Positions 48,816 to 62,438 are shown, counted from the first letter of the stretch. The stretch is 64,000 nt of DNA from an uncultured Acetobacteraceae bacterium (GCA_964247755.1 CAXTVX010000006.1:8022-72021), one strand, 5' to 3'. Numbers and translations: made by a program. Notes: generated from the letters alone by a model not told the origin.

Positions 48816-49213
48816 GCGACGAACCGGACCCACCGTCGGTGCTGGACGAGGTGGCGTTCAACCCGGCCGGGCTGGTGGCCGCGATCGCGCAGCAGCACGA
48901 CACCGGCGAGGTGCTGATGCTGGCGTGGATGAACCGGGCGGCGCTGGCCGAAACGCTTGAGACGGGCCAGGTCTGCTACTGGAGCCGCAGCCGCAGGCAG
49001 CTCTGGCGCAAGGGAGAAACCTCCGGCCAGACCCAGCGCCTGGTCGAGCTGCGCCTCGACTGCGACCGCGACGCCCTGCTGCTGCTGGTCGACCAGACCG
49101 GGGTGGCCTGCCACACCGGCCGGCGCTCCTGCTTCTTCGACGCGCTGCGCGACGGCAGGTTGGTCGCGGTGTCCGAGCCGGAGGTCGACCCTGAGCGGCT
49201 CTACGGCGCCTGA
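48812..49213 (+). CDS. hisI: Phosphoribosyl-AMP cyclohydrolase
   Basis: MLAWMN, YWSRSR..LWRKGETSG, DCDRD, ACHTGRRSCF; GTG start overlapping the ygfZ stop. Confidence 0.95.
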   Translation: MSDEPDPPSVLDEVAFNPAGLVAAIAQQHDTGEVLMLAWMNRAALAETLETGQVCYWSRSRRQLWRKGETSGQTQRLVELRLDCDRDALLLLVDQTGVACHTGRRSCFFDALRDGRLVAVSEPEVDPERLYGA

Positions 49214-49223
49214 CACGGAACCG

Positions 49224-50369
49224 TTGATCTGGCTGATGGCCGGGGAGGCCAGCGGCGACGTGCTGGGCGGGCGGCTGCTGGCGGCACTGCGGCGGCAGCG
49301 TCCGGGGCTCAGGTTCCGCGGCATCGGCGGCGTCCGCATGGCGGAGGCGGGGCTCGACACCCTGTTCCCGATGCGCGAGCTGGCGGTGATGGGGCTGGTC
49401 GAGATCCTGCCGCGGATCCGCGCCCTGTCGCGCCGCCTCGATCAGGCGGTGGCCGACATCGCCGCCGCCCGCCCGGACCTGGTGGTGACCATCGACAGCC
49501 CGGGCTTTGCGCTCAGGCTGCTCAGGCGGATCGCCGGGCTCGGCATCCCGCGCGTGCACTATGTGGCGCCGCAGGTCTGGGCCTGGCGCGAGCACCGGGT
49601 GCGCGAGTTCCCGGGCCTGTGGGAGCGGCTGCTCTGCCTGCTGCCGTTCGAGACCGCGTTCTTCGCAGGGCACGGACTAGACGCCCGTTTCGTCGGCCAT
49701 CCGGTGCTGCAGTCCGGTGCCGGGAGCGGCGACGCGGCGCGGTTCCGTGCCCGGCACGGGCTTGATCCGGCGGCGCCCGTGCTGGTGCTGATGCCGGGCA
49801 GCCGGCGCAGCGAGGTGCCGCGCCTGCTGCCGGTGTTCGGCCGCACCCTGTCGCGTCTGGCGGAACGGGTCCCGGGGCTGGTGCCGGTGGTGGTGGTGTC
49901 GCCGGTGGTGGCGCAGGCGGTGGCGCGGGCGGTGCGTCGCTGGCCGGCGCAGCCGGTGCTGGTGACGGAGCTCGACGACAAGCACGACGCCTTCGCCGCC
50001 GCGGGTGCGGCACTCACCAAGTCGGGCACCTCGACCCTGGAGCTGGCCCTGGCGGGGGTACCGATGGCGGTCACGTACCGGGTCAACCCGCTCACCGCCG
50101 CCATCGCCCGCCAGCTGATCCGGGTGCAGCACGTGGCGATGGTCAACCTGCTGGCCGGGCGCCGCCTGGTGCCGGAGCTGCTGCAGGGGGACTGCCGGCC
50201 GGACCGGCTGGCGCGGACGGTGGAGCGGCTGCTCGGCGATCCGGACGCGGCGAGAGCGCAACGCGCCGGCTTCCGCACGGTGATCGACTCGCTGTCGGCG
50301 GGCGACGAGGCGCCCGCCGACGCGGCGGCGCGCGAGATCCTGGCCCTGCTCGACGAGACCGGGCGGTGA
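49224..50369 (+). CDS. lpxB: Lipid-A-disaccharide synthase
   Basis: AGEASGD, LAVMGLVE, IDSPGF, YVAPQVWAWR, PGSRRSE, SGTSTLE; start uncertain (TTG 49224 or CTG 49191). Confidence 0.95.
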   Translation: MIWLMAGEASGDVLGGRLLAALRRQRPGLRFRGIGGVRMAEAGLDTLFPMRELAVMGLVEILPRIRALSRRLDQAVADIAAARPDLVVTIDSPGFALRLLRRIAGLGIPRVHYVAPQVWAWREHRVREFPGLWERLLCLLPFETAFFAGHGLDARFVGHPVLQSGAGSGDAARFRARHGLDPAAPVLVLMPGSRRSEVPRLLPVFGRTLSRLAERVPGLVPVVVVSPVVAQAVARAVRRWPAQPVLVTELDDKHDAFAAAGAALTKSGTSTLELALAGVPMAVTYRVNPLTAAIARQLIRVQHVAMVNLLAGRRLVPELLQGDCRPDRLARTVERLLGDPDAARAQRAGFRTVIDSLSAGDEAPADAAAREILALLDETGR

Positions 50370-51793
50370 GCGGAACCGCACCATCCGACGCCGCCTGGAC
50401 CCTGCCCGGCCGGTTCGGGCCGGAACGCTGGCAGCGCGAAGCGGACCGGTTCACGGCCGTCGCGGTAGCGGGCGACCGGATCGCCCTGCCCACCGACCGC
50501 GTGACCGAGGCCCGGCTGCGCAGCCGCGAGGCCGCCTGCGCGCATCCGGGCCCGTTCCCGCTCGCCTTCCGCTTCTGCCCGGACTGCGGCGCGGCCCTGG
50601 CGGAGGCGCCAGGGGAACCCGACGCGGAAGCCTGGTCGCCGCCGTTCGGTGCCGCCACCGGGTTGCCGGCCCGGGACGAGACGGTCGAGCCGGATCCGGC
50701 CAGCCACGAGGAGATCGCGGTCCCGCCGTCTTCCGCGCTCGGCTTCGCCGTGGCCGGCACGCCGCCGATGCTGCTGGCCTGCGACCGGGTCGACGGCTGG
50801 GTCAGGGCCTGGTCGGAGCTCGGCCGGCGGTGGATCGACCGCGTCCAGCTGCCGCCGTGCACCGTTCTGCCCGCCTGGAGCTGGGCCGCCGCCGCCGACG
50901 CGTCGGGCCTGTCGCTGCCGACCGATCGCGGCCCCGCCTTCATCGGGCTGACCGCGCCGCGGCGGGCGCCGGTGGCGCTGCTGGAGGGTCCTGCGCCGCT
51001 GGGCGGGGCCGGCGTGCTGCGCAGCCAGGTCGCCCTGCCGGTGCGGGATGCTGCCGGACTGGCGCTTGCCGTGCTCGATCGTGCGGCACCCGAGCGCGGC
51101 TGGTCGCTGCTGCCGGTGCCGGGAGCCGCGGCGGAGGCGCTGGCAACCCCGGTGGCGACCGGCGACCGGCTGCTCTGGTGCGGACCCACGGGACTGCTCA
51201 CGCTGCAGGCGGGGCCGGACGGTTCCACCGCCCATTGGCAGGGCTGGCAGGACGGGATCTGGCCGCTGCCCGGCGTGCGCCCGGTGGCGGAGCCGAACGG
51301 CACCCTGCACCAGCTCGCCAGGCTCGATCCGCACACGCTGGTGCTGCAAAGCCTGTCCACTCCGGGCCAGGTGCCGGAACGCCGGGCCGCCCGCGGCTAC
51401 ACCCCCGGCACCGGTCGGGCGGTGTTCCGCGAGAACGCCCGGCTACGACTGCCCTGGGACAAGCGCGCAGCCTCGGACTACGTGATTCCGGACGGCACCT
51501 TCCTGCTGCCGCTGCTGGAGTTCGGCGGCGGCCGGACCGTTCTGGTGCTGTGCACCGGCCGCGACCGGCTCGGCCGCTTCCTGGGCGATCCAACCGCGCC
51601 GGACGATGCGGACGCGGACCACGCCTGCACCCTGTTCTACAGCCGCGGTCCGCGCGTGCTCGAGCCGCTGGACTGCCTGCTGCGCGCGCGGGACGCGTCC
51701 GACCTGTCGGTGTTCCTCCATGCCGGCTGGCTCTACGCCCACGGCGCCCGCGACGGAGGCTGCCATCGGTGGCGGCTGCGCGATGCGGGCTAG
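50366..51793 (+). CDS. Hypothetical protein with Zn-ribbon and beta-rich (propeller-like) region
   Basis: C-x-H...RFCPDCG near the N-terminus, many short Trp-containing strands, no signal or TM seen; GTG overlaps the lpxB stop. Confidence 0.75.
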   Translation: MSGTAPSDAAWTLPGRFGPERWQREADRFTAVAVAGDRIALPTDRVTEARLRSREAACAHPGPFPLAFRFCPDCGAALAEAPGEPDAEAWSPPFGAATGLPARDETVEPDPASHEEIAVPPSSALGFAVAGTPPMLLACDRVDGWVRAWSELGRRWIDRVQLPPCTVLPAWSWAAAADASGLSLPTDRGPAFIGLTAPRRAPVALLEGPAPLGGAGVLRSQVALPVRDAAGLALAVLDRAAPERGWSLLPVPGAAAEALATPVATGDRLLWCGPTGLLTLQAGPDGSTAHWQGWQDGIWPLPGVRPVAEPNGTLHQLARLDPHTLVLQSLSTPGQVPERRAARGYTPGTGRAVFRENARLRLPWDKRAASDYVIPDGTFLLPLLEFGGGRTVLVLCTGRDRLGRFLGDPTAPDDADADHACTLFYSRGPRVLEPLDCLLRARDASDLSVFLHAGWLYAHGARDGGCHRWRLRDAG

Positions 51794-53258
51794 AACGGGC
51801 GTGGCGCTGCTGTGGTGCGGCCTGATGGCGGTCCGGCCGGCGCTGGCGCAGGTGAGCTCGCTCTACCTGATCCAGGACTCCGGCTGGATGGAGCCGTTCT
51901 ACACCGACACGGCCGCGCCGTTCCGGCCGTTGCTGAACGCGCTGGTGGCAGCCTCGCACGCCGACGGCGAGGTCGTCGTCGCCGGCTTCGACCAGGACGG
52001 CCAGGTCCCGGGTCGGCATTCCCCGGACGTGCTCTACCGCGGCCGGTTCGACCCGGCGCGGGTCGCGGCCGCGGTGGCGGCGCTCGACCTGCCGCACCAG
52101 CCGGACGGCCACCTGGCCGATGCCGACTTCGATGGCGCGCTGGTGCGCGGCATCGACACGGTCCTGGACGGCCATCCGGGCATCGTCTGGCTGGTCACCA
52201 ACAACCGCAACTCGCCCGGCAACAGCCAGCGCGTGGACGAGAACACCCGCGCCTTCGCGCAGGCGCTCGGATCGAGCCCGGCGCTGCCGGTGGTAGTGGC
52301 GTATCCGGTGCGGCTGCCGGCGACCGGGCGGCTCTACAGCGCACAGGGGCTGATCGTGTACGGGATCGCCTACGGCGCGCAGGCCGCGGTCGCGTTGCGC
52401 CGATCGACCGCGAGCCCGGCGCTCAGGCAGCTGTTCAGCGACCCGGCGGTGCAGCTCAAGCCGCTGGACCAGGCGCCGCTGCGCTTCACCCCGGACGCCA
52501 CCCTCACTCCCGGCCTCATCGCCAGCCGGGGCATCGACGGCAGCCTGCGTATCGCCGGCGTGCCCGGCGGCCGGGCCTCGAACGTCGAGATCGCCGGCAC
52601 GCTGCGCTCCGACTACTACCCGCACGTGATCGACCGGGCGCGGCTGTCGCTGCGTTGGGACCGGCTGGAGCAGGTTGCCGGCCGCCCGGCGCTGCCGCTT
52701 CCTGCGGCGACGATCGCGCCGGGCGAGGTCGACGGGCTCGGTCCGGGTGCGGCGCTGCGCGTGCGGATACGGCTGGACATCCCGCGCATCGACCGCGCGC
52801 CCGGCCTCGCCGGCTGGCTGCAGAAGGACGTGGCGCTGCACGGCACGCTCGCGGTCGGCCTGTCGAACCTCCGCCTGTCGCTGCAGGACGGGTTCGTGGC
52901 CAAGATGACGCAGGTGGCGGCACTCGATCAGCTGCCGGGGGTGTTCTTCGACAACAAGACGGTGGCGGCCGCATCGGCGGTGCTGCCGGTCACGCTGGTG
53001 GTGCATTATTCCGCCGTGCCGCTGATCCTGGCACTGTGCAGCCTGTCGGTCCTGCTGCTGCTCCTGGCCCTGCTGCTGGTGCTGCTGCGCCGCGAGCGCG
53101 AGCACCTCCTGCCGCTCGACGGGCAGGTGCGCCGGGTGCGGCTGCGTCCGTTCGGGACCAGGCAGATCACGCTGCCCGCGGGCCGAACCTTCGTCCTGCG
53201 CGGCCGCCTTGTCGGGGCCCCGCGGATCGTGCGACGCCCGGACAGCGATCCGCGCTGA
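51783..53258 (+). CDS. Membrane-anchored secreted protein with vWA-like domain
   Basis: Signal peptide (RPALA|Q), LYLIQDSGWME (MIDAS-like), DADFDGAL, IVWLVTNN, beta-sandwich region, TM at ~53020-53090, short tail. Confidence 0.7.
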   Translation: MRARTGVALLWCGLMAVRPALAQVSSLYLIQDSGWMEPFYTDTAAPFRPLLNALVAASHADGEVVVAGFDQDGQVPGRHSPDVLYRGRFDPARVAAAVAALDLPHQPDGHLADADFDGALVRGIDTVLDGHPGIVWLVTNNRNSPGNSQRVDENTRAFAQALGSSPALPVVVAYPVRLPATGRLYSAQGLIVYGIAYGAQAAVALRRSTASPALRQLFSDPAVQLKPLDQAPLRFTPDATLTPGLIASRGIDGSLRIAGVPGGRASNVEIAGTLRSDYYPHVIDRARLSLRWDRLEQVAGRPALPLPAATIAPGEVDGLGPGAALRVRIRLDIPRIDRAPGLAGWLQKDVALHGTLAVGLSNLRLSLQDGFVAKMTQVAALDQLPGVFFDNKTVAAASAVLPVTLVVHYSAVPLILALCSLSVLLLLLALLLVLLRREREHLLPLDGQVRRVRLRPFGTRQITLPAGRTFVLRGRLVGAPRIVRRPDSDPR

Positions 53259-53278
53259 GATCGCGTCCAGGACAGGTC

Positions 53279-53746
53279 ATGCCAGAGCCGTCGCCCCAGA
53301 CCCCGCCGGACTTCAACATCAAGCCGCCGGCGGATGCCCTGCCGCAGCAGCCGGCACCGGTCGCGCCGACGCCCGGCGCGATCCAGCCGGGTACGCCGAT
53401 CAGCGCCGCCGGCCTGCCGGGCGACACCGGCCTGTCCAGCACCGGCGAGGTGATCGGCGTGGCGATCCTGCTGCTGCTGGCGGTCGCGATCTTCCTCGTC
53501 CGCGGCGCGGTGCGCAGCCACCTGATCGCGCAGCGTGCCTCGCCCTCGGCTGCCGGCAGCGCCGGCTGGGCGCTGTTCGCGTTCCTGCTGTCGCTGTCGG
53601 TGCTGATCGTGTTCGGCCTGCTCGGCGACCTGTGGGGGGCGCTCGCCTTCGTGCTGCCGCTGCTGCTGCTGGTCGTGGTGACGCTGGTGCTGTTCGTGCT
53701 GCTCTACCGTTCCGCCGCGCGCGGCCATGCGCCGCGACGGCGCTGA
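53279..53746 (+). CDS. Pro-rich 3-TM membrane protein
   Basis: About 55-aa Pro-rich N-terminus then three hydrophobic helices; ATG 53279 after AGGA. Confidence 0.8.
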   Translation: MPEPSPQTPPDFNIKPPADALPQQPAPVAPTPGAIQPGTPISAAGLPGDTGLSSTGEVIGVAILLLLAVAIFLVRGAVRSHLIAQRASPSAAGSAGWALFAFLLSLSVLIVFGLLGDLWGALAFVLPLLLLVVVTLVLFVLLYRSAARGHAPRRR

Positions 53747-53760
53747 GGAACACACTGCCC

Positions 53761-56700
53761 ATGTCCAGCACCCAAGCGACGACGCTTCCCGACGCCGAGC
53801 GCGCCAACTCCGATCGTCCGGCGGCAAGGCGGGTGCAGCCGACCCTGTTCGTGGGCCTCGGCGGCACCGGCATGCAGATCCTGCTGCGCCTGCGCCGGCG
53901 CATCCTCGCCGGCGACTGGAACGGACGCCGGATCGACGACCTCGCCCGCTTCCCGATCGCCTCGTTCGTCTACTTCGACACCGACCTGCGTACCGCGATC
54001 GAAAGCGACCGGCAGCAGGCGACCGACCCGCTGGCCCGCCTGGTGGCGTTCCGCGAGAACGAGCGGCTGCAGCACGCGGTCGACGTCAAGCGCTACATGA
54101 AGGACATCGACCGCTATCCGCTGATCGCGGACTGGCTGCCCGTGGCCGACTTCTCGCTGATCAACACCGAGAAGGGTGCCGGCCAGGTGCGGGCGATCTC
54201 GCGGCTGCTGTTCTTCGACCAGTTCCGCAAGCTCACCGACCTGCTGCGCGAGCGCGCCGACGGGCTGCTGCGTTCGGTCGGTCGGCAGGACGACCTCGCG
54301 CATCTCAACCTCGAGATCGAGAACCGGCTGCGCGTGGTGGTGTGCTGCTCGGCCGCTGGCGGCACCGGCTCGGGCTCGTTCATCGACCTGGGCCTGGCGC
54401 TGCGCTCGCTGATCCACCCCAGCCCCACGGTGGAACTCGTGCTGCTGCTGCCCGGCGGCTACCACGAGCACCAGCGGCAGCGGGTGAACGCCAACGGCTA
54501 CGCGGCGCTGATGGAGCTCGAGCACGCGATGCGGCCGAATCCGCAGCCGCCCTTCGTGGAGGCGTGGGCCGAGCACCAGGGGCCGGCGGCGAACATCGCG
54601 CCGTACGACGACGTCTACCTGCTCGACACCCGCAACGTGCTCGACGACGGCCTCGATTCGGTCGAGGACCTGTACGACATGGCGGCCGACATCCTGTTCG
54701 AGGATTTCGGCGCCAGCGAGTTCGCCGCCGCCAAGCGCTCGATCGCGGTGAACCAGGCGCAGCACAAGATCGACAACTACGAGCCGCCGCTGCCGGCGCA
54801 TCTCGGCCGGCAGTCGCTGCGCTACAGCCAGCTGTTCTCCACCTTCGGCCAGGCGACCATCGACACCAAGAGCCGCGTGGCGGTGGATGCCGCGGCGGCG
54901 GTCGCGTCCAAGGCGATGCTCAAGGCGTACTTCAACGTCGCCCTGGAGGACTCCGGACGCCTGCCGACGCCGGCCGAGCGCGACGACTTCCTCCAGCGGC
55001 AGTTCTTCCTGCAGCCGAGCGCGTTCCACCACGTGCTGCCCGGTGCGGCCGACGCGTCGGCGATCAACGAGCCGTTCCTCCTCGACCGCCTGCTGGAGGA
55101 CGAGACCGGACAGTCGGTGCTGGGCGGGATCGACCGCGACCTGCTCGCCACCTACCAGTCGGAGGGCTTCCAGGCTGCCGACCCGCGCAACCTGCCGACC
55201 CTGGTGCTTCGCGAGTTCGAGCAGCGGCATGGCGACGTGATGGGCACCATCCGGCACAAGACCGGCTCCGGGCTTGCCGCCGACCGAATCCTCGCCACCC
55301 GGCAGCGGCTCACGTCGGAGCGGCGCGGCGCCGGCCCGGGAGGCCTGCGCGCGGTGCTGTACGACTACCTCGACCAGCGCGACCGCGGCGGCCTGGACTA
55401 CACCATCCGTCTGGTCGAGGACTCCAAGCTGCGGCTGGAAGCGGAGATCGCCCGGCTGGACGAGGTGGAGGCGCGTTATGCCGCCCGCGCCGGCGACACG
55501 CAGCACCGCTTCGAGCAGTCGCTGGACAACCTGCGGGAAGCGGTCAACCGCCGTTTCCCGTTCGGGCCGGACCGCCGCGCCGCCGAGCGCTACCTGGAGC
55601 ACCTGCGGACCGAGACCTCCTACTATCTCGCCATGCAGCTCCGCCGTCAGGCGGCGGTGGAGGCGCGCGCGTTCCTGCGCGAGATGTCGGAGGCGCTCGG
55701 CACGCGGCGCGGCCAGGACGCCGACGGCAACACGCTGTGGGACGGCGCCGTCGCCGAGCTGGTGCAGGGCCGCGTGCTGGTGCGCCACACGCTGGGCGAG
55801 TTCGACGCCGAGATCGCGCTGCTTCGCGACGCGGTGTCCCGGCGCGACGCCGGCACCTTCGTGGTGCTGCCCGAGGCGGATGCCGACGCGCGTGCCATGC
55901 TCAAGAGCGACCCGGCGGAGATCGAGCGCTGGGCGGCGGAGATGTTCCGCGACGAGGGCGGCTCGCGCACCTTGTTTCCCATCCTGCGCGACGACACGGG
56001 GCGCGCCCTGCTGCTCAACCGCCTGCGCGGCTTCGCCCGGGTGCAGCTCGCGCCGCGCGCGGAGGCGCTGCGCTCGGCGCAGTCGATCCTGCTCGACATG
56101 AGTGCGCGCGACCGCATCGCCCTGTTCGGCCGCGCCATGGTCCGCGCCATGCCCTGGCTCGACGCGTCGTTCGACCATCTCGGCGACAACTTCGCCATGG
56201 GCCCGCGCTACACCCTGCTGATCGCGGTGGACGATAAGGAAGCGTTCGAGCGCAACTTCCGCGCCGAGATCGAGCAGGTGGTGCCCACCGGTCGGCTCGG
56301 CATCGGGCCGCCGCAATATCTGAACTCGGGGCTTCGCGACCGCATCCTGATCTATTGCGAGCTGAGCGGCATCCCGCTCGACAGCATCGATCCGCTGCGC
56401 TCCGAATGGCGCGTCTCCTACCAGCTGGAGCAGAAGCGCCCGCTGCCGCTGCACACCCACCGGCAGAGCGAGCGCTTCCCCGACCCCGTCGTGCCGAGCA
56501 CGCGCGAGATCGAGGAGATGCGTCGCAACATGGGGCTGTTCCTGCGCGGCGTCGCGTACGGCATCCTTGCCCGTGGCGCCCGTCCCGGACAGCCGTACCA
56601 GATCGACCTCGGCGGCGGCGACTGGGGCGATGCCGGCACCGAGCGGATCATACGCGGCAGCGGCTTCTCCCGGCACCGCGACAAGGTGCAGACGCGGATC

Positions 56701-57366
56701 GAGGCGTTCGAGCGGGCCTGGAGCCCGATCCAGCTTCTCGCGGCCGCGGCGCTGGTCGCCTGGACCGGGGAGCGTGTCTACGCCGCGCGCCTGCAGCGCA
56801 TCGGCCCGACCCAGACCGACCGCATCCCCGGCCTGGTGCAGATCCTGGCGGCCGAGCTGTCGCGGCAGATGCGCGACCGCGCCGGCGCCATGGCCGGCGC
56901 GCCGGACGATCCGGACGCGCTGTATGGCCGGCTCCGCCGCACGATCCCGGACTGGACCGAGGCGCTGCCCGGCAGTGCCGCCGACGCCGATCCGCACGAC
57001 GCGAACACCGATCCGAACGACCAGCCCGAGGCGCGGGCGCAGGACAAGCGACGGATCGTCCCGGCTCGGTTCGCTACCGAGGCGCTGCAGCGGGTCGCGG
57101 CCGAGGCGCCCGCCGTCGCGCCGGGTGTGGTGTCGGAAACAGGCGTCATGCCGTCCTGGCACCTGTCGATCGCCAGGAGGCTGTCCGGCCCGTTCGGCCT
57201 GCCCCAGCTCGGGACGCTCGCTGCCGGGGGCACGCTGAAGGAGGGTACCAACGTCCGCCTGCTGGGCGGCACCACCTGGCAGCGCGTGCGCGACGTGCCG
57301 GTGCTGCTGGCGCTGCTGCGCGATACCCTGCCGGAGGACGAGGACGCGCTGCCGGATGACGAGTAG
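53761..57366 (+). CDS. Divergent tubulin/FtsZ-superfamily GTPase (Tubulin_2/FtsZl1-like), 1201 aa, with C-terminal GYF_2-like domain
   Basis: LFVGLGGTG, YFDTD, EKGAGQVRAISR, SAAGGTGSG, LLLP, NANGYAAL, YLLD; long helical middle; C-terminal WHL..RLSGPF..QL..L..GG......V...G...W. Confidence 0.85.
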   Translation: MSSTQATTLPDAERANSDRPAARRVQPTLFVGLGGTGMQILLRLRRRILAGDWNGRRIDDLARFPIASFVYFDTDLRTAIESDRQQATDPLARLVAFRENERLQHAVDVKRYMKDIDRYPLIADWLPVADFSLINTEKGAGQVRAISRLLFFDQFRKLTDLLRERADGLLRSVGRQDDLAHLNLEIENRLRVVVCCSAAGGTGSGSFIDLGLALRSLIHPSPTVELVLLLPGGYHEHQRQRVNANGYAALMELEHAMRPNPQPPFVEAWAEHQGPAANIAPYDDVYLLDTRNVLDDGLDSVEDLYDMAADILFEDFGASEFAAAKRSIAVNQAQHKIDNYEPPLPAHLGRQSLRYSQLFSTFGQATIDTKSRVAVDAAAAVASKAMLKAYFNVALEDSGRLPTPAERDDFLQRQFFLQPSAFHHVLPGAADASAINEPFLLDRLLEDETGQSVLGGIDRDLLATYQSEGFQAADPRNLPTLVLREFEQRHGDVMGTIRHKTGSGLAADRILATRQRLTSERRGAGPGGLRAVLYDYLDQRDRGGLDYTIRLVEDSKLRLEAEIARLDEVEARYAARAGDTQHRFEQSLDNLREAVNRRFPFGPDRRAAERYLEHLRTETSYYLAMQLRRQAAVEARAFLREMSEALGTRRGQDADGNTLWDGAVAELVQGRVLVRHTLGEFDAEIALLRDAVSRRDAGTFVVLPEADADARAMLKSDPAEIERWAAEMFRDEGGSRTLFPILRDDTGRALLLNRLRGFARVQLAPRAEALRSAQSILLDMSARDRIALFGRAMVRAMPWLDASFDHLGDNFAMGPRYTLLIAVDDKEAFERNFRAEIEQVVPTGRLGIGPPQYLNSGLRDRILIYCELSGIPLDSIDPLRSEWRVSYQLEQKRPLPLHTHRQSERFPDPVVPSTREIEEMRRNMGLFLRGVAYGILARGARPGQPYQIDLGGGDWGDAGTERIIRGSGFSRHRDKVQTRIEAFERAWSPIQLLAAAALVAWTGERVYAARLQRIGPTQTDRIPGLVQILAAELSRQMRDRAGAMAGAPDDPDALYGRLRRTIPDWTEALPGSAADADPHDANTDPNDQPEARAQDKRRIVPARFATEALQRVAAEAPAVAPGVVSETGVMPSWHLSIARRLSGPFGLPQLGTLAAGGTLKEGTNVRLLGGTTWQRVRDVPVLLALLRDTLPEDEDALPDDE

Positions 57367-57985
57367 GACCCGGCACGGCGGCTGGAGCGCCCTGCTGCTG
57401 CTGGCAGCCCTGCCCGGTTCCGCCAGTGCCCAAGCAATACCGCTGGAGCAGGCAGAGACTGTCGTGGCGACCAGGCTGCAGCAGGTGCTGGAAAACGCGC
57501 CGGCCGACCGGCCGGTGCCGTGGCGGGACGAGGCAAGCGGCCTGTCCGGCACGATCGTCGCAGCACCTGCGACCTTTTCCGGGCGCCCCTGCCGCGCGCT
57601 CCGCTACACCGTGCAGGGCGGCTCCGAGCTGCTGTCGGTCGAGGGCGAGCGCTGCCGCGAGCCGGGTGGGCAATGGGTGGCGGGCCGGTTCGCCGACCGG
57701 ATCGCCGAGACGCCGGCGGCCAACCCAATGATCCGCGACCTCCAGGGGGCGCTGCGGCGGCTCGCCTACTACCGCGGGGCGGTGGACGGCGTCGCATCGT
57801 CCACCCTGACCCGCGCCCTGCTCGCCTTCGAGCACGACGAGCAGGTGCTGCCCGATGCCGAGCCAAGTCCGGACCTGCTGGGGCTCGCCGACGCCGCGAT
57901 CGCGCGCATCCCGGCCGCCGGCTCCTGCACACCGGAGCAGCCGGTGCCGGACGGATGGTCGGCGGCGTGCGGCAGCACACGCTAG
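57356..57985 (+). CDS. Secreted protein: 17-kDa surface-antigen-like domain plus peptidoglycan-binding domain
   Basis: Signal peptide; LENAP..PVPW.D..SG.SG...PCR....CR.PGGQW; IRDLQGALRRLAYYRGAVDG...TRALLAFE. Confidence 0.72.
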   Translation: MTSRTRHGGWSALLLLAALPGSASAQAIPLEQAETVVATRLQQVLENAPADRPVPWRDEASGLSGTIVAAPATFSGRPCRALRYTVQGGSELLSVEGERCREPGGQWVAGRFADRIAETPAANPMIRDLQGALRRLAYYRGAVDGVASSTLTRALLAFEHDEQVLPDAEPSPDLLGLADAAIARIPAAGSCTPEQPVPDGWSAACGSTR

Positions 57986-59062
57986 ATGCCGGACGCACCA
58001 CCATGCCGGCGCTGCGGCGAGATCCTGCAGGCGCCGGTGTCCTTTTGTCCGTTCTGCGGCATGGCGCAGGCGGTGCCCGCCGCCGCTGCCCCGACACCCA
58101 TGCCACCGCCAACCATCGCCCCTGCCCCGCCGGCGCAGCCGATGCAGGCAGCCGCGCGGCAGCCGATCGTGCCACCCGTGGCCCCCACGCCGCCGCCATC
58201 ACCGCCGCCCCGCACGTCGCCAGGCGGCGCATCGCCGGTCCGGGTGGTCCCGGTGCCGTCCCGTCCGCCACGGCGCCAGCCGACGCCGGCCGCTCGTGCC
58301 GCCCGCGCCACCGCGATACGCAAGCTGGTGCTGGCCGGCATCATCCTGGCCTGCGCCGCGGTGCTCTGGCACCACCTGACTGTCGTGCCGCGCGGCACCC
58401 TGCTGGTGCATCTGACCCGCCCGGTGGACGGCACGGTGCTGGTCGACGGCAGCCCGTCCGGCGCTCCCGACCGGCCGATCCCGGTCGAGGCCGGCCGGCA
58501 CGAGGTCGGTTTCGCCGCCCCCGACTGGAGCACGCTCCCAGTTACGATCGCGCTGCGTGGCGGAAGCACGCGCACCGTGTCGCTGTCGCCCTCGCCACGC
58601 CGGGCCACGCTCGGGCTGGACAGCATCCCGCCCGGCGCCAGCCTGAGCGTGAACGGGCGCCGGATCGGGCATGCGCCCATGAGCCTGTCGCTGCCGCCCG
58701 GGTCCTATCGCCTTGGCGCGGAGCTGCCGGGCGTCGAGCCGGACCAGCAGCGTCTGACCCTGGCACCGGGAGAACGGCGCAGCCTCGGCCTGGTCCTGCA
58801 GCCGCTGCCGGTCCGGACCCTGCACCTGTCCGCGCCAGCCGGCGCCTGGAGCGACCCGGTGACGCTGCCGCCGCACGCGCACGTCACGGTGCTGTTCGGC
58901 GGCCCGATCCGGCTGCGGGTCGGCGGCCGGGTGGTGCTTCTGGACGGCGGCGCGCCGGCCAGCCTAGGGTCGCTCGATGGCGACGCGCTGTCGTTCACCG
59001 CCGTGGGCGGCGATCCGGTGCCGGTGCTCCTCCTCATTCGCAGCGTCGGCGCGCCCGGCTGA
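57986..59062 (+). CDS. Zn-ribbon / Pro-rich / TM / tandem PEGA-like protein
   Basis: CRRC..FCPFCG, Pro-rich linker, TM (LVLAGIILACAAVLW), two PEGA-like repeats (GTVLVDG; DSIPPGASLSVNG..IG.APM..LPPGSY). Confidence 0.8.
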   Translation: MPDAPPCRRCGEILQAPVSFCPFCGMAQAVPAAAAPTPMPPPTIAPAPPAQPMQAAARQPIVPPVAPTPPPSPPPRTSPGGASPVRVVPVPSRPPRRQPTPAARAARATAIRKLVLAGIILACAAVLWHHLTVVPRGTLLVHLTRPVDGTVLVDGSPSGAPDRPIPVEAGRHEVGFAAPDWSTLPVTIALRGGSTRTVSLSPSPRRATLGLDSIPPGASLSVNGRRIGHAPMSLSLPPGSYRLGAELPGVEPDQQRLTLAPGERRSLGLVLQPLPVRTLHLSAPAGAWSDPVTLPPHAHVTVLFGGPIRLRVGGRVVLLDGGAPASLGSLDGDALSFTAVGGDPVPVLLLIRSVGAPG

Positions 59063-59076
59063 TCGGCGCCTTCTTC

Positions 59077-60021
59077 ATGCATTCCGTGCTGTCCGTCCTG
59101 CTGCCGATCTTCGGCCTGATCCTGGCTGGCTACGCGTGCGGGCGCCGCGGCTGGCTCGGGGCCGGTGCCACCGACAGCCTCAACCGCTTCGTGGTGCGCC
59201 TGGCGCTGCCGGCCGAGCTGTTCGACACACTGGCGCGGGTGACGCGGGCGCAGATCGACCATCCGTCGTTCATCGCCGCCTTCGCTGGGGGCATGCTCCT
59301 CACCTTTGCCGTCGGCTTCGTGCTCGACTACCGGCGCCCGGTCGAGCGCGCGCACCGGCTGTCCGGCGCCACGATCGAGGGGCTGACCGCGGGCTACGCC
59401 AACACCGCCTTCATCGGCATCCCGCTCTGCCTCGGCGTGTTCGGCCCGGCCGGGCTGCCGCCGGTGGTGCTGGCGACCCTGCTGACCGTGTGCGCCCTGT
59501 TCGCGCTGGCGATCGGGCTGGTGGAGCTCGATGCGGAAGGCGGCCAGGGGGTCGGCCGCACCGTCCTGAAGGTCGCGGTGGCGCTGCTGCGCAACCCCCT
59601 GGTGGCGGCGCCGATCGCGGGCGCCCTGGTGAACCTGTCCGGGATCGGCCTCCCCGCGCCGGTGTCCCGCTTCACCAGCCTGCTCGGCGACGCCGCCAGT
59701 CCCTGCGCCCTCGTCACCATCGGCCTGTTCCTGGCGGAAACCGGCGGCCGGGCGGCCTCGCTGCCGGCGGTGATCCGGGTGGTCGCGGCCAAGCTGCTGT
59801 TGCAGCCGGCGCTGACCGCGCTGCTGGCGTTCCCGGTGTTCCGGCTCGAGCCGCTCTGGGCGCAGTCGGCGGTGCTGATCGCCGCCCTTCCGGTCGGCAC
59901 CGGGCCGTTCATGCTGGCCCGGCTCTACAACCGCGAGGCCGACGTCGCCAGCCGCGCCACTCTGGTCTCGACGCTGCTGTCCCTGGTGACAGTGTCGCTG
60001 CTGCTGGACTGGATCGGCTGA
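59077..60021 (+). CDS. AEC family transporter
   Basis: LLPIFGLILAGY, LNRFVVRLALPAELF, ANTAFIGIP, LLRNP, AKLLLQP; start at ATG 59077. Confidence 0.92.
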   Translation: MHSVLSVLLPIFGLILAGYACGRRGWLGAGATDSLNRFVVRLALPAELFDTLARVTRAQIDHPSFIAAFAGGMLLTFAVGFVLDYRRPVERAHRLSGATIEGLTAGYANTAFIGIPLCLGVFGPAGLPPVVLATLLTVCALFALAIGLVELDAEGGQGVGRTVLKVAVALLRNPLVAAPIAGALVNLSGIGLPAPVSRFTSLLGDAASPCALVTIGLFLAETGGRAASLPAVIRVVAAKLLLQPALTALLAFPVFRLEPLWAQSAVLIAALPVGTGPFMLARLYNREADVASRATLVSTLLSLVTVSLLLDWIG

Positions 60022-60196: not shown

Positions 60197-62389
60197 TTGT
60201 CTCGAATCATTAGAAAGCACGCTGCACGGGCAGGCCTCGGCGCCGCGCTGCTCGCCTGCACCATGTCGGCGGCGGTGTCCGCCCCGCCCGCGACGCTGGC
60301 CGGCAACGTCGCCGGCTGGGTCCAGTCCGCGATCGAGACCGGCACCGCGCCGGACGACCAGGCGGTGTCGATCGTCGTGCACATGGCGCTGAAGGACAAG
60401 GCCGGGCTGGCGGGCCTGGTCGCCTCGGTGTCCACGCCGGGCAGCGTCCAGTACGGCCACTACCTGAGCGCCGCCGACTTCCAGGCCCGTTACGCGCCCG
60501 ACGCGTCCGACGTCGCCGCGGTGCGGGACATGCTGGCCGAGGCCGGAATGGCGCACGTGACGGTCGGGCCGCTCGGCGCCTACGTGTCGGCGACGGCCAC
60601 GGTCGGCCAGTTGCGCACCGCGTTCGCGGTCAGCCAGAAGCTGTACCGCTACGGCAGCACCACCCTGCGCGCCAACAAGGAGGCGCCGCGCGTGCCGGCC
60701 GCGCTGGCCGCCAAGATCCTGTTCATCGAGGGCCTCGACGACACCACCTTCCTCAAGCGGCCGCAGCACATCTCGGTCACCGCCGGCACCCTGACGGCGC
60801 CCACCGCCCGGTCGTTGGCGCTGTCGTCGGCCGCGAGCCCCGCGGTGCTGGCGCCGCCGGTGGCGTCCAACACGCCGTCGCCCTATTGCAGCACCTATTT
60901 CGGCGACGCCAACGCCACGCTGAGCACCCAGCCGGCGCCTTATGGCAAGACGCTGCCCTGGCTGTCCTGCGGCTATACCCCGCAGCAGATCCAGTCCGCC
61001 TACGGGCTCAACCCGTTCAACATCGGCCTCGATGGGCGTGGCGTGACGGTGGCCATCCTTGATGCCTACGCCTCGCCCACCCTGCAGTCGGACGGCAACC
61101 ACTACGCCACCCGCCACCACCTGCCGGCGCTGACCTCTGCCAACTTCTCGGAAGTCATCCCGGCCGGCATCTACGACGTGTCCGCCAGCGAGGCCTGCGG
61201 CCCGTACGGCTGGTGGACCGAGGAGTCGCTCGACGTCGCGGCGGTGCACGGCTCGGCGCCGGGTGCGAAGATCGTCTATGTCGGCGCGCGCGACTGCGGC
61301 AGCTCGCTGACCACCGCGCTGCTCGACACCATCTACGACCACCGCGCCGACATCATCACCAACAGCTACGGCAACAACGGCGAGGACGTGTCGCCGGCCG
61401 ACGTCGCCACCGAGGACCAAGCCTTCATGGCGGCGGCGGCGCAGGGCATCACCGTGCTGTTCTCGTCTGGCGACGATGGCGACCTGTCGCAGGACAACGG
61501 CGTCGCCACCGGGTCGTGGGAAGCCACCAGCGCTTACGTCACCGGCGTCGGCGGCACCTCGCTGTTGCTCACCAACAGCCGCGGCGCCAAGACCGAATAT
61601 GGCTGGGGCACCTATCGCGACTTCCTGGCCAACGCGACGGTGAACAGCGCCACCTCGATCACCACCAGCGGCCTGACCACTACCACGGTGGACGGCAGCA
61701 CCTTCCCGGCGTTCAGCTTCTATTCCGGCAGCGGCGGCGGCATCAGCCTGCTCGAGGCGCAGCCCGAGTACCAGGCGGCGGTGGTGCCGGCGGCGCTGGC
61801 GACCACGCTGAACGAGGCGAGCGGCGAGTCGGTGCCGCTGACGCCGCACCGCGTCAGCCCCGACATCTCAGCCGACGCCGATCCCTATACCGGCTACCTG
61901 TATGGCGAGACCTATACCATCGCGAACGACGGCCACAGCGACATCGGCTGCACGCCGGAAAGTGCGACCACAGAGTACTGCGAGATCGACGAGGGCGGCA
62001 CCAGCCTCGCCTCGCCGCTGACCGCCGGCGTGATGGCGACCGTGAACGAGGTTCACGGATTGCTGGGCCGGCCGTTCGTCGGCTTCGCCAACCCGTGGCT
62101 GTACAGCCACCGCATCGGCCAGACCGCCAACAGCGCCGGCATCAACCAGGTCAAGCCGCCGGCCACGCCGACTGCGGTGCTGCGCGGCTACGTCACCGAC
62201 CCGAACGAGGTCCGTGTGGTGACGATCAACTCGGTGCCGGACCTGATCATCACCGCACCCTTCGCGCTGCAGGTCTGCTCCACCGCGATCTGCGAAGGCA
62301 TCGACGACGTGTTCAACTACACCACCCCCGGCTACAACGACGTCACCGGATTGGGGGTGCCATTCGTTCCGCTGCTGGCGCTGCAGTAG
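60197..62389 (+). CDS. Secreted S53 (sedolisin/kumamolisin) peptidase with prodomain
   Basis: Signal peptide, prodomain, EESLDV (Glu/Asp), SSGDDG, GGTSLASP (catalytic Ser), GYNDVTGLG; TTG start after GGAGA. Confidence 0.92.
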   Translation: MSRIIRKHAARAGLGAALLACTMSAAVSAPPATLAGNVAGWVQSAIETGTAPDDQAVSIVVHMALKDKAGLAGLVASVSTPGSVQYGHYLSAADFQARYAPDASDVAAVRDMLAEAGMAHVTVGPLGAYVSATATVGQLRTAFAVSQKLYRYGSTTLRANKEAPRVPAALAAKILFIEGLDDTTFLKRPQHISVTAGTLTAPTARSLALSSAASPAVLAPPVASNTPSPYCSTYFGDANATLSTQPAPYGKTLPWLSCGYTPQQIQSAYGLNPFNIGLDGRGVTVAILDAYASPTLQSDGNHYATRHHLPALTSANFSEVIPAGIYDVSASEACGPYGWWTEESLDVAAVHGSAPGAKIVYVGARDCGSSLTTALLDTIYDHRADIITNSYGNNGEDVSPADVATEDQAFMAAAAQGITVLFSSGDDGDLSQDNGVATGSWEATSAYVTGVGGTSLLLTNSRGAKTEYGWGTYRDFLANATVNSATSITTSGLTTTTVDGSTFPAFSFYSGSGGGISLLEAQPEYQAAVVPAALATTLNEASGESVPLTPHRVSPDISADADPYTGYLYGETYTIANDGHSDIGCTPESATTEYCEIDEGGTSLASPLTAGVMATVNEVHGLLGRPFVGFANPWLYSHRIGQTANSAGINQVKPPATPTAVLRGYVTDPNEVRVVTINSVPDLIITAPFALQVCSTAICEGIDDVFNYTTPGYNDVTGLGVPFVPLLALQ

Positions 62390-62406: not shown

Positions 62407-62438
62407 GGCGGCGGAGCGATGCTCCGCCGCCTAGTTTT
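62407..62438 (+). terminator. Terminator hairpin between the convergent S53 and lysE genes
   Basis: Perfect 11-bp stem GGCGGCGGAGC-gat-GCTCCGCCGCC followed by TAGTTTT. Confidence 0.75.

What the first reader, a model, noticed from the sequence alone, without database searches (positions are those of the whole stretch)
50366..59062. Six-gene trans-envelope system built around a giant tubulin-like GTPase
Seen: six co-directional genes with spacings of -11, +20, +14, -11 and 0 nt. They encode (A) a cytoplasmic Zn-ribbon/beta-rich protein, (B) a periplasmic vWA-like protein with a C-terminal TM, (C) a Pro-rich 3-TM protein, (D) a 1201-aa tubulin-fold GTPase with GYF_2, (E) a secreted peptidoglycan-binding protein and (F) a Zn-ribbon-TM-PEGA protein. 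Known: Makarova and Koonin (2010) described FtsZ-like families (FtsZl1) in operons with vWA and membrane proteins and predicted membrane remodelling; I know of no functional characterisation. Unlike many such loci, no kinase, FHA or extra GTPase is present here, while a cell-wall anchor is. Inference: a cytoplasm-to-peptidoglycan machine (filament, membrane adaptors, periplasmic adhesin, wall tether) for envelope remodelling, stress sensing or contact/defence.
Basis: partly seen in the sequence, partly recalled or inferred. Interest (0 to 1): 0.88.

Follow-up and report, generated by a model that had tools for sequence, protein, structure and literature searches.

The report
Conserved tubulin-like envelope gene cassette
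Six adjacent genes form a real, conserved cassette that links a giant tubulin-like GTPase in the cytoplasm to membrane, periplasmic and cell-wall-binding partners; the protein family has been known from computation since 2010, but its function has never been tested.

Summary
All six genes (A-F, 50366-59062, + strand) are real, with exactly the stated spacings. The domain calls check out:
- D is Pfam Tubulin_2 (E 1.8e-51) plus GYF_2.
- B has a vWA fold with a degenerate metal site, a beta-sandwich stalk, a TM helix and a short tail.
- A is a cytoplasmic beta-propeller with a zinc knuckle.
- C is a small membrane protein with three predicted TM helices.
- E is exported and peptidoglycan-binding.
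- F is zinc ribbon, Pro-rich linker, TM, PEGA.

A-B-C-D is an invariant core: 63 of 63 related loci from alpha-, beta- and gammaproteobacteria have it. F-like partners are frequent and E-like ones less so.

Two species of the same genus lack exactly A-F. In them lpxB abuts the downstream transporter gene, so the six genes behave as one unit.

This is a proteobacterial subtype of the FtsZl1/Tubulin_2-vWA operons predicted by Makarova and Koonin (2010). It lacks the extra GTPase and kinase of other subtypes, and I found no description of it.

New leads are a GltJ-like GYF domain on D opposite a zinc ribbon plus Pro-rich linker on F, and recurrent TerD/ter-cluster linkage in relatives.

Function is untested. 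I favour an envelope-surveillance scaffold; defence and membrane remodelling are rivals.

This scan noted what is probably the same cassette type before, in Massilia.

The parts
50366..51793 (+). Gene A: cytoplasmic beta-propeller (475 aa) with a zinc knuckle (aa 58-75, nt 50537-50590)
   Evidence: GC3 0.90. No TM helix. AlphaFold pLDDT 93.4, pTM 0.91. Foldseek hits are BamB/WD40/PQQ-type propellers. C58, C71 and C74 are kept in 31-33 of 36 homologues, and position 60 is C or H in 20 of 36. A homologue lies in every related locus with enough flank.
51783..53258 (+). Gene B: type-I membrane receptor. Signal peptide, vWA-fold head (aa 22-212, nt 51846-52418), beta-sandwich stalk, TM helix (aa 412-436, nt 53016-53090), small cytoplasmic beta tail
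53279..53746 (+). Gene C: 155-aa membrane protein with three predicted TM helices; Pro/Ala-rich acidic N-terminal tail carrying a conserved [D/G]-F-x-[I/L]-P-x-P motif (aa 11-17, nt 53309-53329)
   Evidence: Hydropathy. Positive-inside reasoning on the sequence puts the N-terminal tail in the periplasm. The motif recurs in alpha-, beta- and gammaproteobacterial homologues. A homologue lies in all related loci.
53761..57366 (+). Gene D: 1201-aa tubulin-superfamily GTPase (FtsZl1/Tubulin_2). Tubulin_2 domain aa 29-384 (nt 53845-54912), T4 signature AGGTGSG aa 199-205 (nt 54355-54375), long family-specific body, GYF_2 aa 1133-1181 (nt 57157-57303), acidic C-terminal tail
   Evidence: PF13809 at 175.9 bits (cut-off 27) and GYF_2 at 26.7 bits. 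35/35 aligned homologues are Tubulin_2 and 32/35 have GYF_2. The T1 and T4 glycines are invariant. The GYF part matches PDB 7z3c, the GltJ/AgmX GYF domain, at E 1.5e-8. D is the most conserved gene of the cassette, with median 84.5% identity in the genus.
57356..57985 (+). Gene E: exported 209-aa protein with 17kDa_Anti_2 (aa 43-112) and PG_binding_1 (aa 124-175, nt 57725-57880)
   Evidence: Pfam hits. Signal-peptide-like N-terminus ending ASA-Q. E-like genes occur in 17/53 related loci.
57986..59062 (+). Gene F: zinc ribbon (aa 7-26, nt 58004-58063), Pro-rich basic linker, TM helix (aa ~113-133, nt 58322-58384), periplasmic PEGA domains (best stretch aa 208-273, nt 58607-58804)
   Evidence: PEGA E 7e-14 in two stretches; the Zn_Ribbon_1 hit is weak. 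TM helix. The zinc ribbon, Pro-rich linker (15-38% Pro) and TM helix are shared by F-like partners in alpha-, beta- and gammaproteobacteria, while the periplasmic domain varies.

Best explanation
The six genes are one accessory cassette of the FtsZl1 (Pfam Tubulin_2)-vWA class. Its invariant core has four parts:
- B, an integrin-like type-I receptor: periplasmic vWA head on a beta-sandwich stalk, one TM helix and a short cytoplasmic tail.
- C, a small membrane protein with three predicted TM helices and a periplasmic motif-bearing tail.
- A, a cytoplasmic beta-propeller with a zinc knuckle.
- D, a 1,201-aa tubulin-superfamily GTPase ending in a GYF_2 adaptor.

E (peptidoglycan-binding) and F (zinc ribbon, Pro-rich linker, TM, PEGA) add a tie to the cell wall.

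The mechanism I commit to is an envelope-surveillance switch:
1. B, with C, registers a periplasmic cue such as envelope damage or a ligand.
2. The signal crosses the membrane to A and D.
3. GTP-bound D assembles into a membrane-proximal scaffold.
4. The GYF domain of D docks on the cytoplasmic Pro-rich linker of F, which with E fastens the assembly to peptidoglycan.
5. The output is local stabilisation or remodelling of the envelope. In other lineages it is coupled to periplasmic proteases, caspases or Ter proteins.

Shown: gene structure, domain identities and the folds of A and B, predicted topology, co-occurrence, and presence or absence as one block.

Inferred: every protein-protein contact, the direction of signalling, D self-assembly, and the output.

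My odds are about 0.9 that this is a functional unit of the FtsZl1 class and about 0.4 for the surveillance-scaffold mechanism.
For: Unit:
- A-B-C-D is present in 63/63 related loci with enough flank (58 in the order ABCD, 5 in the order BCAD), across alpha-, beta- and gammaproteobacteria.
- A-F is syntenic in 11/11 genus loci.
- The two congeners without D also lack B, and in them lpxB is joined directly to the transporter gene, which is the exact absence of A-F.

Identity:
- D is Tubulin_2 with invariant T1 and T4 motifs.
- A canonical FtsZ lies elsewhere in the genome.
- B has a vWA fold.
- A is a propeller.

Coupling between D and F:
- The GYF of D is related to the GltJ GYF domain, which binds a Pro-rich sequence in vitro and in vivo (PMC11135422).
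- F-like partners keep the zinc ribbon, Pro-rich linker and TM helix while their periplasmic domain changes.
- The C-terminal adaptor of D is itself swappable: GYF_2, a double zinc ribbon, or SHOCT.

Envelope and stress theme:
- Partners carry PG_binding_1, PEGA, SH3_3, TonB_C, OmpA, Gly-zipper/17-kDa antigen and periplasmic Trypsin_2 domains.
- TerD is fused to A in several homologues, and in one locus the operon sits beside a full ter cluster. TerD genes adjoin D in 3 of 80 loci.

Selection:
- D (median 84.5% identity in the genus) is more conserved than lpxB (81.5%), while A (62%), E (63%) and F (50%) diverge fast.
Against: - No interaction, localisation, GTPase or polymerisation data exist for any member, in the literature I could search.
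- FtsZl1 proteins lack a recognisable T7 loop and C-terminal polymerisation domain (PMC2875224), so canonical filament formation is doubtful.
- My profile comparison with FtsZ gave only a weak local match at the T4 loop.
- The tubulin fold of D was not tested by structure.
- The MIDAS motif of B is degenerate, so metal-dependent ligand binding is unlikely.
- Methylobacterium loci have A-B-C-D but no E or F within 10 kb, so the wall tether is dispensable.
- In one congener a PEPCK gene lies antisense between B and C, so single-transcript expression is not obligatory.
- The TerD link is present in only a minority of relatives and not in this cassette.
Confidence: 0.4

Rival explanations
1. It is an anti-phage or other conflict system of the kind described by Kaur et al. 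2020 (eLife, PMC7159879). An envelope-proximal vWA sensor detects an invader, and the tubulin-like NTPase sets a threshold or acts as a multimerising effector that leads to growth arrest or cell death.
For: - The domain vocabulary matches the GAP1-N2 GTPase-centric systems: tubulin, an extracellular vWA domain, zinc ribbons, TM proteins with PEGA/SH3 domains, and GYF with trypsin.
- The distribution is patchy: 3 of 143 genera of the family.
- The cassette is present or absent as a block within the genus.
- A, E and F evolve fast.
- Two caspase genes flank the Azospirillum plasmid variant.
- Relatives are linked to TerD and ter genes. From my own knowledge, ter loci are reported to confer phage and colicin resistance.
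Against: - None of the six proteins hits PADLOC.
- The defining DO-GTPase and GAP1 components are absent.
- This cassette has no obvious toxic effector.
- It is kept in 19 of 21 other genus genomes, embedded in an lpxB-transporter operon rather than a defence island.
- It is almost absent from plasmids (3 of 72,556) and phages.
Confidence: 0.25
2. It is a constitutive cytoskeletal or membrane-remodelling machine, as Makarova and Koonin proposed. D polymers on the inner membrane shape the membrane, drive vesicle formation or organise local envelope growth, and B, C, E and F act as anchors.
For: - D belongs to the tubulin superfamily, with conserved GTP-binding loops.
- All partners are membrane or periplasmic proteins.
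- D is under stronger constraint than neighbouring housekeeping genes.
- The original prediction is in PMC2875224.
Against: - The polymerisation elements of FtsZ are not recognisable in FtsZl1.
- Two healthy congeners (genomes 100% and 97% complete) lack the cassette entirely, and so do most genera of the family. It therefore cannot serve a general growth function.
- No lipid-binding or membrane-bending domain was found.
Confidence: 0.2
3. It is an adhesion or gliding-type trans-envelope complex, analogous to the Myxococcus Agl-Glt focal adhesion (vWA adhesin, zinc-ribbon/GYF membrane protein, GTPase, cytoskeleton).
For: - The GYF of D is the closest sequence relative of the solved GltJ GYF domain.
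- F resembles the layout of GltJ without its GYF domain.
- One F-like partner carries TonB_C.
- A vWA protein is present.
Against: - There is no proton-driven motor (TolQR/ExbBD/AglRQS-like) and no outer-membrane component in the cassette.
- B is anchored in the inner membrane.
- The zinc ribbon and GYF domain are on different proteins.
- Attia et al. state that zinc-ribbon/GYF proteins outside Myxococcales do not correlate with MglA/B or AglZ.
Confidence: 0.05
4. The six genes are only neighbours, without a shared function.
For: - Tight spacing also joins lpxB and the transporter gene to the run.
- One congener has a foreign gene between B and C.
Against: - A-B-C-D is linked in 63/63 loci across three proteobacterial classes, including after a gene-order change (BCAD).
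- The six-gene block is exactly absent in two congeners.
- Fusions (TerD-A) and domain swaps lie within the same neighbourhoods.
Confidence: 0.03

Closest known systems
FtsZl1 ('FtsZ-like 1', Pfam Tubulin_2 PF13809) operons with vWA, membrane and OmpA-type proteins (Makarova and Koonin 2010, PMC2875224)
   Same: - A giant protein of about 1,000-1,200 aa with an N-terminal divergent tubulin/FtsZ GTPase domain, the GGTGSG signature and family-specific inserts between T1 and T4.
- It coexists with a canonical FtsZ.
- It is operonic with a vWA protein, membrane proteins and a peptidoglycan-binding protein.
- No experimental function is known.
   Different: - The paper lists only four alpha- or betaproteobacterial members, with other neighbours (COG2304 vWA giants, OmpA). 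It lists none of the genera found here.
- This subtype has a fixed A-B-C-D core: a propeller, a vWA-stalk-TM receptor that no Pfam or COG-type model recognises, and a small 3-TM protein.
- D carries a C-terminal GYF_2 adaptor.
- There is no kinase or extra GTPase.
GAP1-N2-type GTPase-centric conflict systems with tubulin and vWA components (Kaur, Burroughs, Iyer, Aravind 2020, PMC7159879)
   Same: Tubulin-domain protein with a helical C-terminal extension; a vWA domain facing outward; zinc ribbons; TM proteins ending in PEGA or SH3; occasional GYF, trypsin and caspase partners; inferred action next to the membrane and wall.
   Different: - Those systems are defined by a DO-GTPase plus GAP1 and FNIII-repeat proteins. 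The tubulin theme is reported as restricted to Firmicutes and Actinobacteria.
- Here there is no P-loop GTPase, GAP1 or FNIII protein, and the hosts are Proteobacteria.
GltJ zinc-ribbon/linker/GYF switch of the Myxococcus xanthus Agl-Glt focal-adhesion machinery (Attia et al. 2024, PMC11135422; PDB 7z3c)
   Same: - A bacterial GYF_2 domain (profile match E 1.5e-8).
- A zinc ribbon followed by a flexible Pro-rich linker on a single-pass membrane protein whose periplasmic part reaches the wall.
- Partnership with a GTPase and a cytoskeletal element.
   Different: - The zinc ribbon and linker (F) and the GYF domain (D) are on separate proteins.
- The GTPase is tubulin-like, not Ras-like.
- No MglA/MglB/AglZ, motor or outer-membrane parts are present.
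- The resemblance is at the level of domains, not of the system.
Ter (tellurite-resistance) stress-response clusters (TerD, TerC and linked biosynthetic genes)
   Same: - In relatives, TerD is fused to the A propeller or to the zinc ribbon of an F-like partner.
- One operon of this family is divergent from a full ter cluster.
- Both are envelope or stress-associated accessory systems.
   Different: No TerD or TerC gene lies in or beside this window's cassette. The link is seen in 3 of 80 loci only.
Integrins and other vWA-stalk-TM-tail receptors
   Same: B has a vWA head on beta-sandwich 'leg' domains, a single TM helix and a short cytoplasmic tail next to a cytoskeleton-family protein.
   Different: The MIDAS motif is degenerate (Q-x-S-x-W). 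There is no sequence relationship beyond the fold. B is a single chain, and signalling is unproven.

Membership tests
FtsZl1 / Pfam Tubulin_2 (PF13809) | Significant match to the family model over the whole GTPase domain | tested here: met
   175.9 bits against a cut-off of 27, E 1.8e-51, model positions 1-352 of 356. 35/35 aligned homologues match.
FtsZl1 / Pfam Tubulin_2 (PF13809) | Tubulin/FtsZ GTP-binding loops: glycine-rich T1 and the T4 signature [A/G]GGTG[S/T]G | tested here: met
   GLGGTG at aa 32-37 and AGGTGSG at aa 199-205. G34, G35, G37 and A199-G203 plus G205 are invariant in 35 sequences.
FtsZl1 / Pfam Tubulin_2 (PF13809) | Tubulin/FtsZ three-dimensional fold | tested here: inconclusive
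PF00091 is hit weakly by 9/35 members (best E 0.04). The claim therefore rests on family membership and on the HHpred result reported in PMC2875224.
FtsZl1 / Pfam Tubulin_2 (PF13809) | Present in addition to a canonical FtsZ | tested here: met
   The genome has one PF00091 FtsZ on another contig (E 2.4e-50) and a single Tubulin_2 gene.
FtsZl1 / Pfam Tubulin_2 (PF13809) | Operon with a vWA-domain protein and membrane proteins | tested here: met
vWA domain (gene B) | vWA alpha/beta fold | tested here: met
vWA domain (gene B) | Intact MIDAS metal site (DxSxS ... T ... D) | tested here: not met
   The position reads Q31-x-S33-G34-W35, invariant in 35 homologues.
GAP1-N2 GTPase-centric conflict systems (Kaur et al. 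2020) | DO-clade P-loop GTPase plus GAP1 component | tested here: not met
   No GTPase family other than Tubulin_2 was found in A-F or the flanking genes.
GAP1-N2 GTPase-centric conflict systems (Kaur et al. 2020) | Tubulin, outward-facing vWA, and TM proteins with wall-binding domains | tested here: met
   compared with the description read.
GltJ-type zinc-ribbon/linker/GYF switch | Bacterial GYF_2 domain related to GltJ | tested here: met
   The profile of D homologues matches 7z3c_A at E 1.5e-8 over aa 1135-1209 of the profile.
GltJ-type zinc-ribbon/linker/GYF switch | Zinc ribbon, linker and GYF contiguous on one membrane protein | tested here: not met
   The zinc ribbon and linker are on F and the GYF domain is on D.
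Known anti-phage defence systems (PADLOC-DB 2.0) | Match of any component to a defence-system model | tested here: not met
   0 families for all six proteins at E <= 0.1.
PEGA / PG_binding_1 wall-associated domains (genes F, E) | Match above the Pfam gathering score | tested here: met
   PEGA 51.9 bits (cut-off 20.8), PG_binding_1 24.9 bits (cut-off 23), 17kDa_Anti_2 27.2 bits (cut-off 26.6).

The most novel reading that the evidence does not exclude
Bacteria have an integrin-like outside-in pathway. A vWA-stalk-TM receptor (B, with C) in the periplasm directly controls GTP-dependent assembly of a tubulin-superfamily protein (D) through a beta-propeller (A). The assembly is fastened to peptidoglycan through a split zinc-ribbon/Pro-rich/GYF adaptor. 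It serves as a membrane-damage (Ca2+/Ter-linked) repair or alarm scaffold, which would be a new class of bacterial cytoskeleton-coupled envelope signalling.
Probability: 0.15. Interest if true: 0.85.

Novelty: new variant of a known kind. Interest (0 to 1): 0.55.

Why it matters
FtsZl1/Tubulin_2 proteins are the most divergent branch of the tubulin superfamily. Sixteen years after their prediction, I found no tested function for any of them.

This subtype has features that make the question experimentally approachable:
- It has a small, invariant four-gene core.
- It occurs in culturable genera: Methylobacterium, Janthinobacterium, Massilia, Variovorax, Azoarcus, Ancylobacter and Acinetobacter calcoaceticus.
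- It shows natural presence/absence polymorphism at a single defined site within one genus.
- It offers concrete, testable contacts: GYF with the Pro-rich linker, the B tail with the propeller, and the C motif with the vWA head.
- Its link to TerD and ter genes suggests which stresses to try first.

If D does assemble in response to a periplasmic receptor, that would be a new way for bacteria to couple envelope state to a cytoskeletal protein.

Tried and rejected
- **Homodimer prediction for D aa 1-470**: no answer. The chains folded poorly (pLDDT 53-54). This is not evidence either way.
- **Profile-profile comparison of the D N-terminus with FtsZ**: only a weak local match at the T4 loop.
- **PDB sequence searches**: the B profile found nothing relevant. 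The D profile found only the GYF domain.
- **Foldseek of the whole B model against PDB**: dominated by beta-sandwich hits. VIA-align was needed to see the vWA head.
- **Family libraries**: NCBIfam and PADLOC gave no family for any of the six proteins.
- **ESM Atlas look-ups**: for A, only a weak propeller lead. For D and its C-terminal body, only other Tubulin_2 clusters.
- **Transcription**: no RNA run holds the locus. Four runs of unknown kind gave only contigs of related strains, so there is no evidence on co-transcription.
- **Promoter and terminator scan**: no terminator inside A-F, a weak one after the transporter gene and a strong one after the S53 peptidase gene. This is consensus-level evidence only.
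- **Literature searches** for PF13809, Tubulin_2, FtsZl1, DUF4339/GYF_2, and TerD with tubulin: no functional study.
- **Rejected: lpxB and the downstream transporter gene as parts of the system.** They are joined to each other when A-F is absent, and they are unlinked from A-B-C-D in other genomes.
- **Rejected: the Pro-rich N-terminal tail of C as the GYF ligand.** The positive-inside rule places it in the periplasm.
- **Not resolved**: whether the empty site in the two congeners is ancestral or a deletion.

Full report
**What is there**

The window has 73% GC, so long spurious ORFs are common.

Pfam confirms the following:
- D: Tubulin_2 (aa 29-384, E 1.8e-51) and GYF_2 (aa 1133-1181).
- E: 17kDa_Anti_2 and PG_binding_1.
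- F: two PEGA stretches and a weak zinc-ribbon hit.

A, B and C match no Pfam, NCBIfam or PADLOC model.

Frame analysis showed a gene that the plain ORF list hides. It encodes an AEC-type transporter at 59077-60021 and starts 14 nt after F. Upstream, the stop codon of lpxB (48957-50369) overlaps the GTG start of A. So spacing alone would give a run of at least eight genes, not six.

**Organism and distribution**

Named homologues place the window in the GTDB genus that holds Lichenicola cladoniae and Endosaccharibacter trunci, in the Acetobacteraceae.

- D is found in 19 of 21 other species genomes of the genus at 81-98% identity.
- In the family as a whole, its N-terminal domain is found in only 7 of 301 genomes, in 3 of 143 genera.
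- Full-length relatives (about 1,200 aa, 31-60% identity, Tubulin_2 plus GYF_2) occur in many Alpha-, Beta- and Gammaproteobacteria. Examples are Methylobacterium, Ancylobacter, Aureimonas, Consotaella, Janthinobacterium, Massilia, Duganella, Azoarcus, Variovorax, Stenotrophomonas and Acinetobacter calcoaceticus.
- In one-genome-per-species contigs, 528 stretches encode a relative.
- The gene is nearly absent from plasmids (3 of 72,556 records) and phages (one weak hit).

**The genes form a unit**

- In 11 of 11 genus loci A-F are syntenic.
- I scanned the 80 best related loci with profiles of each protein. All 63 loci with at least 4.3 kb upstream of D carry A, B and C: 58 in the order ABCD and 5 (one Acetobacteraceae clade) in the order BCAD.
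- F-like genes are present in 42 of 53 loci with enough flank on both sides, and E-like genes in 17 of 53.
- Methylobacterium has only A-B-C-D.
- The two congeners that lack D (genomes 100% and 97% complete) also lack B. In both, lpxB is followed directly by the transporter gene, with overlapping stop and start codons (TGATG). That is the exact absence of the six genes A-F.

This result defines the cassette boundaries and shows that lpxB and the transporter gene are only flanks.

Linkage to lpxB is also broken in three other congeners. In one of them a DEAD-box helicase gene lies between lpxB and A. In a fourth congener, a PEPCK gene lies antisense between B and C, so a single transcript is not obligatory.

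**What the proteins are**

*A.* The model is confident (pLDDT 93.4, pTM 0.91). It is a beta-propeller of the BamB/WD40/PQQ type. It has no TM helix or signal peptide. It carries a conserved C-x-[C/H]-x10-C-P-x-C-G knuckle.

*C.* It has a Pro/Ala-rich, net-acidic N-terminal tail with a conserved [D/G]-F-x-[I/L]-P-x-P motif, and hydrophobic segments consistent with three TM helices. The basic residues sit after TM1 and at the C-terminus, so the tail is predicted to be periplasmic.

*D.* It keeps the T1 and T4 GTP-binding loops invariantly, and has further invariant residues along its whole length. The genome has an ordinary FtsZ elsewhere. I could not test the fold of D by structure. My own profile comparison with FtsZ gave only a weak match in the correct register at the T4 loop, and 9 of 35 homologues hit PF00091 weakly.

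*F.* It has a cytoplasmic zinc ribbon, a basic Pro-rich linker, one TM helix and periplasmic PEGA domains.

*E.* It has a signal-peptide-like N-terminus and a peptidoglycan-binding domain.

The predicted topology is therefore trans-envelope in the sense of cytoplasm to wall. No outer-membrane component was found.

**Leads on mechanism**

1. *A GltJ-like adaptor split over two proteins.* The GYF region of D is the only part with a solved relative: the GYF domain of Myxococcus GltJ/AgmX (7z3c, E 1.5e-8). That domain binds a Pro-rich sequence of AglZ. It lies next to a zinc ribbon and flexible linker that act as a switch on a wall-reaching membrane protein (PMC11135422). Here the zinc ribbon and Pro-rich linker are on F, and the GYF domain is on D.
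   - F-like partners across three classes keep just the zinc ribbon, linker and TM helix. Their periplasmic part is PEGA, SH3_3, SH3_3 plus TonB_C, TPR-like or unassigned, and once the zinc ribbon is fused to TerD.
   - The adaptor of D is GYF_2 in 32 of 35 homologues. It is a double zinc ribbon or SHOCT in others.
   - In most lineages the GYF domain is followed by a poly-proline tail. In this genus the tail is acidic.
2. *Periplasmic accessory set.* Other lineages place Gly-zipper/17-kDa-antigen lipoproteins, Trypsin_2 proteases and PEGA or OmpA proteins next to the core. An Azospirillum plasmid variant has two caspase genes.
3. *Link to TerD.* Several A homologues carry an N-terminal TerD domain. 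In one alphaproteobacterial contig, the operon TerD-A, B, C, D is divergent from a full ter cluster: four TerD genes, TerC, PRTase_2/TRSP, StiP/PELOTA_1 and C-C_Bond_Lyase. TerD genes adjoin D in 3 of 80 loci from different lineages.
4. *Uneven rates of change.* Within the genus, D (median 84.5% identity) is more conserved than lpxB (81.5%), the ygfZ-like gene (82.7%) or the transporter (79.6%). B (70%), E (63%), A (62%) and F (50%) change much faster.

**Interpretation**

The safest statement is that this is a functional cassette of the FtsZl1/Tubulin_2-vWA class (about 0.9).

For how it works, I favour an envelope-surveillance scaffold (about 0.4). The periplasmic receptor B, with C, relays a cue to A and D. 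D assembles on GTP at the membrane and is tied to the wall through GYF-linker docking on F, together with E.

Every contact and the output are inferences. The rivals are:
- A conflict or defence system in the sense of Kaur et al. 2020 (0.25). It shares the domain vocabulary but lacks the defining DO-GTPase and GAP1, has no PADLOC hit, and is stably kept in the genus.
- Constitutive membrane remodelling, as first proposed in 2010 (0.2). This is weakened because most relatives and two congeners do without the cassette.
- A gliding or adhesion machine (0.05). No motor or outer-membrane part is present.
- Mere neighbours (0.03).

**Comparison with what is known, and novelty**

Makarova and Koonin (PMC2875224) defined FtsZl1 and predicted operons with vWA, membrane, GTPase, kinase and OmpA-type genes. 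Their lists hold only four alpha- or betaproteobacterial members, with different neighbours. None of the genera found here appears, and the A, B and C families are not among their associated families. Kaur et al. describe tubulin-plus-vWA themes only inside GTPase-centric systems of Firmicutes and Actinobacteria. I found no functional study of any member.

So this is a new variant of a known, uncharacterised kind.

This scan has already reported tubulin-like cassettes in other genomes, including two Massilia loci that are probably the same subtype. A Massilia niabensis locus in my own set has A-B-C-D, with an F-like gene about 2.4 kb downstream of D. I could not compare sequences with those earlier reports.

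**Limits**

- Co-transcription was not tested: no RNA data were found, and the laid runs gave only contigs of related strains.
- The fold and self-assembly of D are untested. The one complex job gave no answer.
- The 80 loci analysed are the closest of the 528 relatives, so the invariance of A-B-C is shown for that subset only.

Noticed in passing
window 59077-60021 (+): AEC-type (auxin-efflux-carrier-like) transporter gene, by reading of its N-terminal sequence; I ran no family search on it. The plain ORF list hides it inside a longer frame, and it was found by codon-position GC. It starts 14 nt after F. In congeners without the cassette its ATG overlaps the lpxB stop (TGATG), so lpxB and this gene look like the original operon into which A-F is set.
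   Followed up: yes
L029:12704-16472 (genus genome G008): A GTP-dependent PEPCK gene (PF00821/PF17297) lies antisense between B and C, together with about 1.7 kb more. This splits the cassette into A-B and C-D-E-F.
   Followed up: partly
L153:1-20130 (metagenome contig); also L065, L096, L102: A TerD-A fusion heads an A-B-C-D operon that is divergent from a complete ter cluster (four TerD genes, TerC, PRTase_2/TRSP, StiP/PELOTA_1, C-C_Bond_Lyase). In a Methylococcaceae MAG the gene after D is a zinc ribbon-TerD fusion followed by more TerD genes.
   Followed up: partly
L148 (Azospirillum sp. TSA2s plasmid p2, NZ_CP039644.1 178261-195598): A more distant variant on a mobilizable 352-kb plasmid. 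A-like and C-like genes lie upstream of D, with no B-like gene between them. The surroundings hold two caspase-family genes, three OmpA-family genes, two DUF4384 genes and a PEGA gene.
   Followed up: no
D C-termini in L039-L118: In most lineages the GYF_2 domain of D is followed (and in Methylobacterium also preceded) by poly-proline runs. In this genus the tail is instead acidic (…LPEDEDALPDDE). GYF-proline self-association or autoinhibition is a possibility that I did not test.
   Followed up: no
L053 = G012:C152 (JBPBQO010000152.1): This contig is titled 'MAG: Janthinobacterium lividum'. It carries the cassette with D 83% identical to the window, and it belongs to a genome that the genome tool places in the window's own genus. 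The NCBI organism name looks wrong, or the contig is mis-binned.
   Followed up: no
window 60197-62389 (+) and 62407-62431: A secreted S53 (pro-kumamolisin/sedolisin-type) peptidase gene, followed by the only strong terminator-like hairpin of the region. It is conserved downstream only in the closest congeners.
   Followed up: no
window 44184-47808 (-): A divergent envelope-sugar cluster: an asparagine-synthase-like amidotransferase, a GT4-type glycosyltransferase and a GT9 heptosyltransferase. It is followed on the + strand by a ygfZ/CAF17-like gene and lpxB.
   Followed up: no
L024:15974-18054 (genus genome G018): A DEAD-box helicase gene and a possible UDG-like gene lie between lpxB and A. 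This shows that the left junction of the cassette is a rearrangement hot spot.
   Followed up: no
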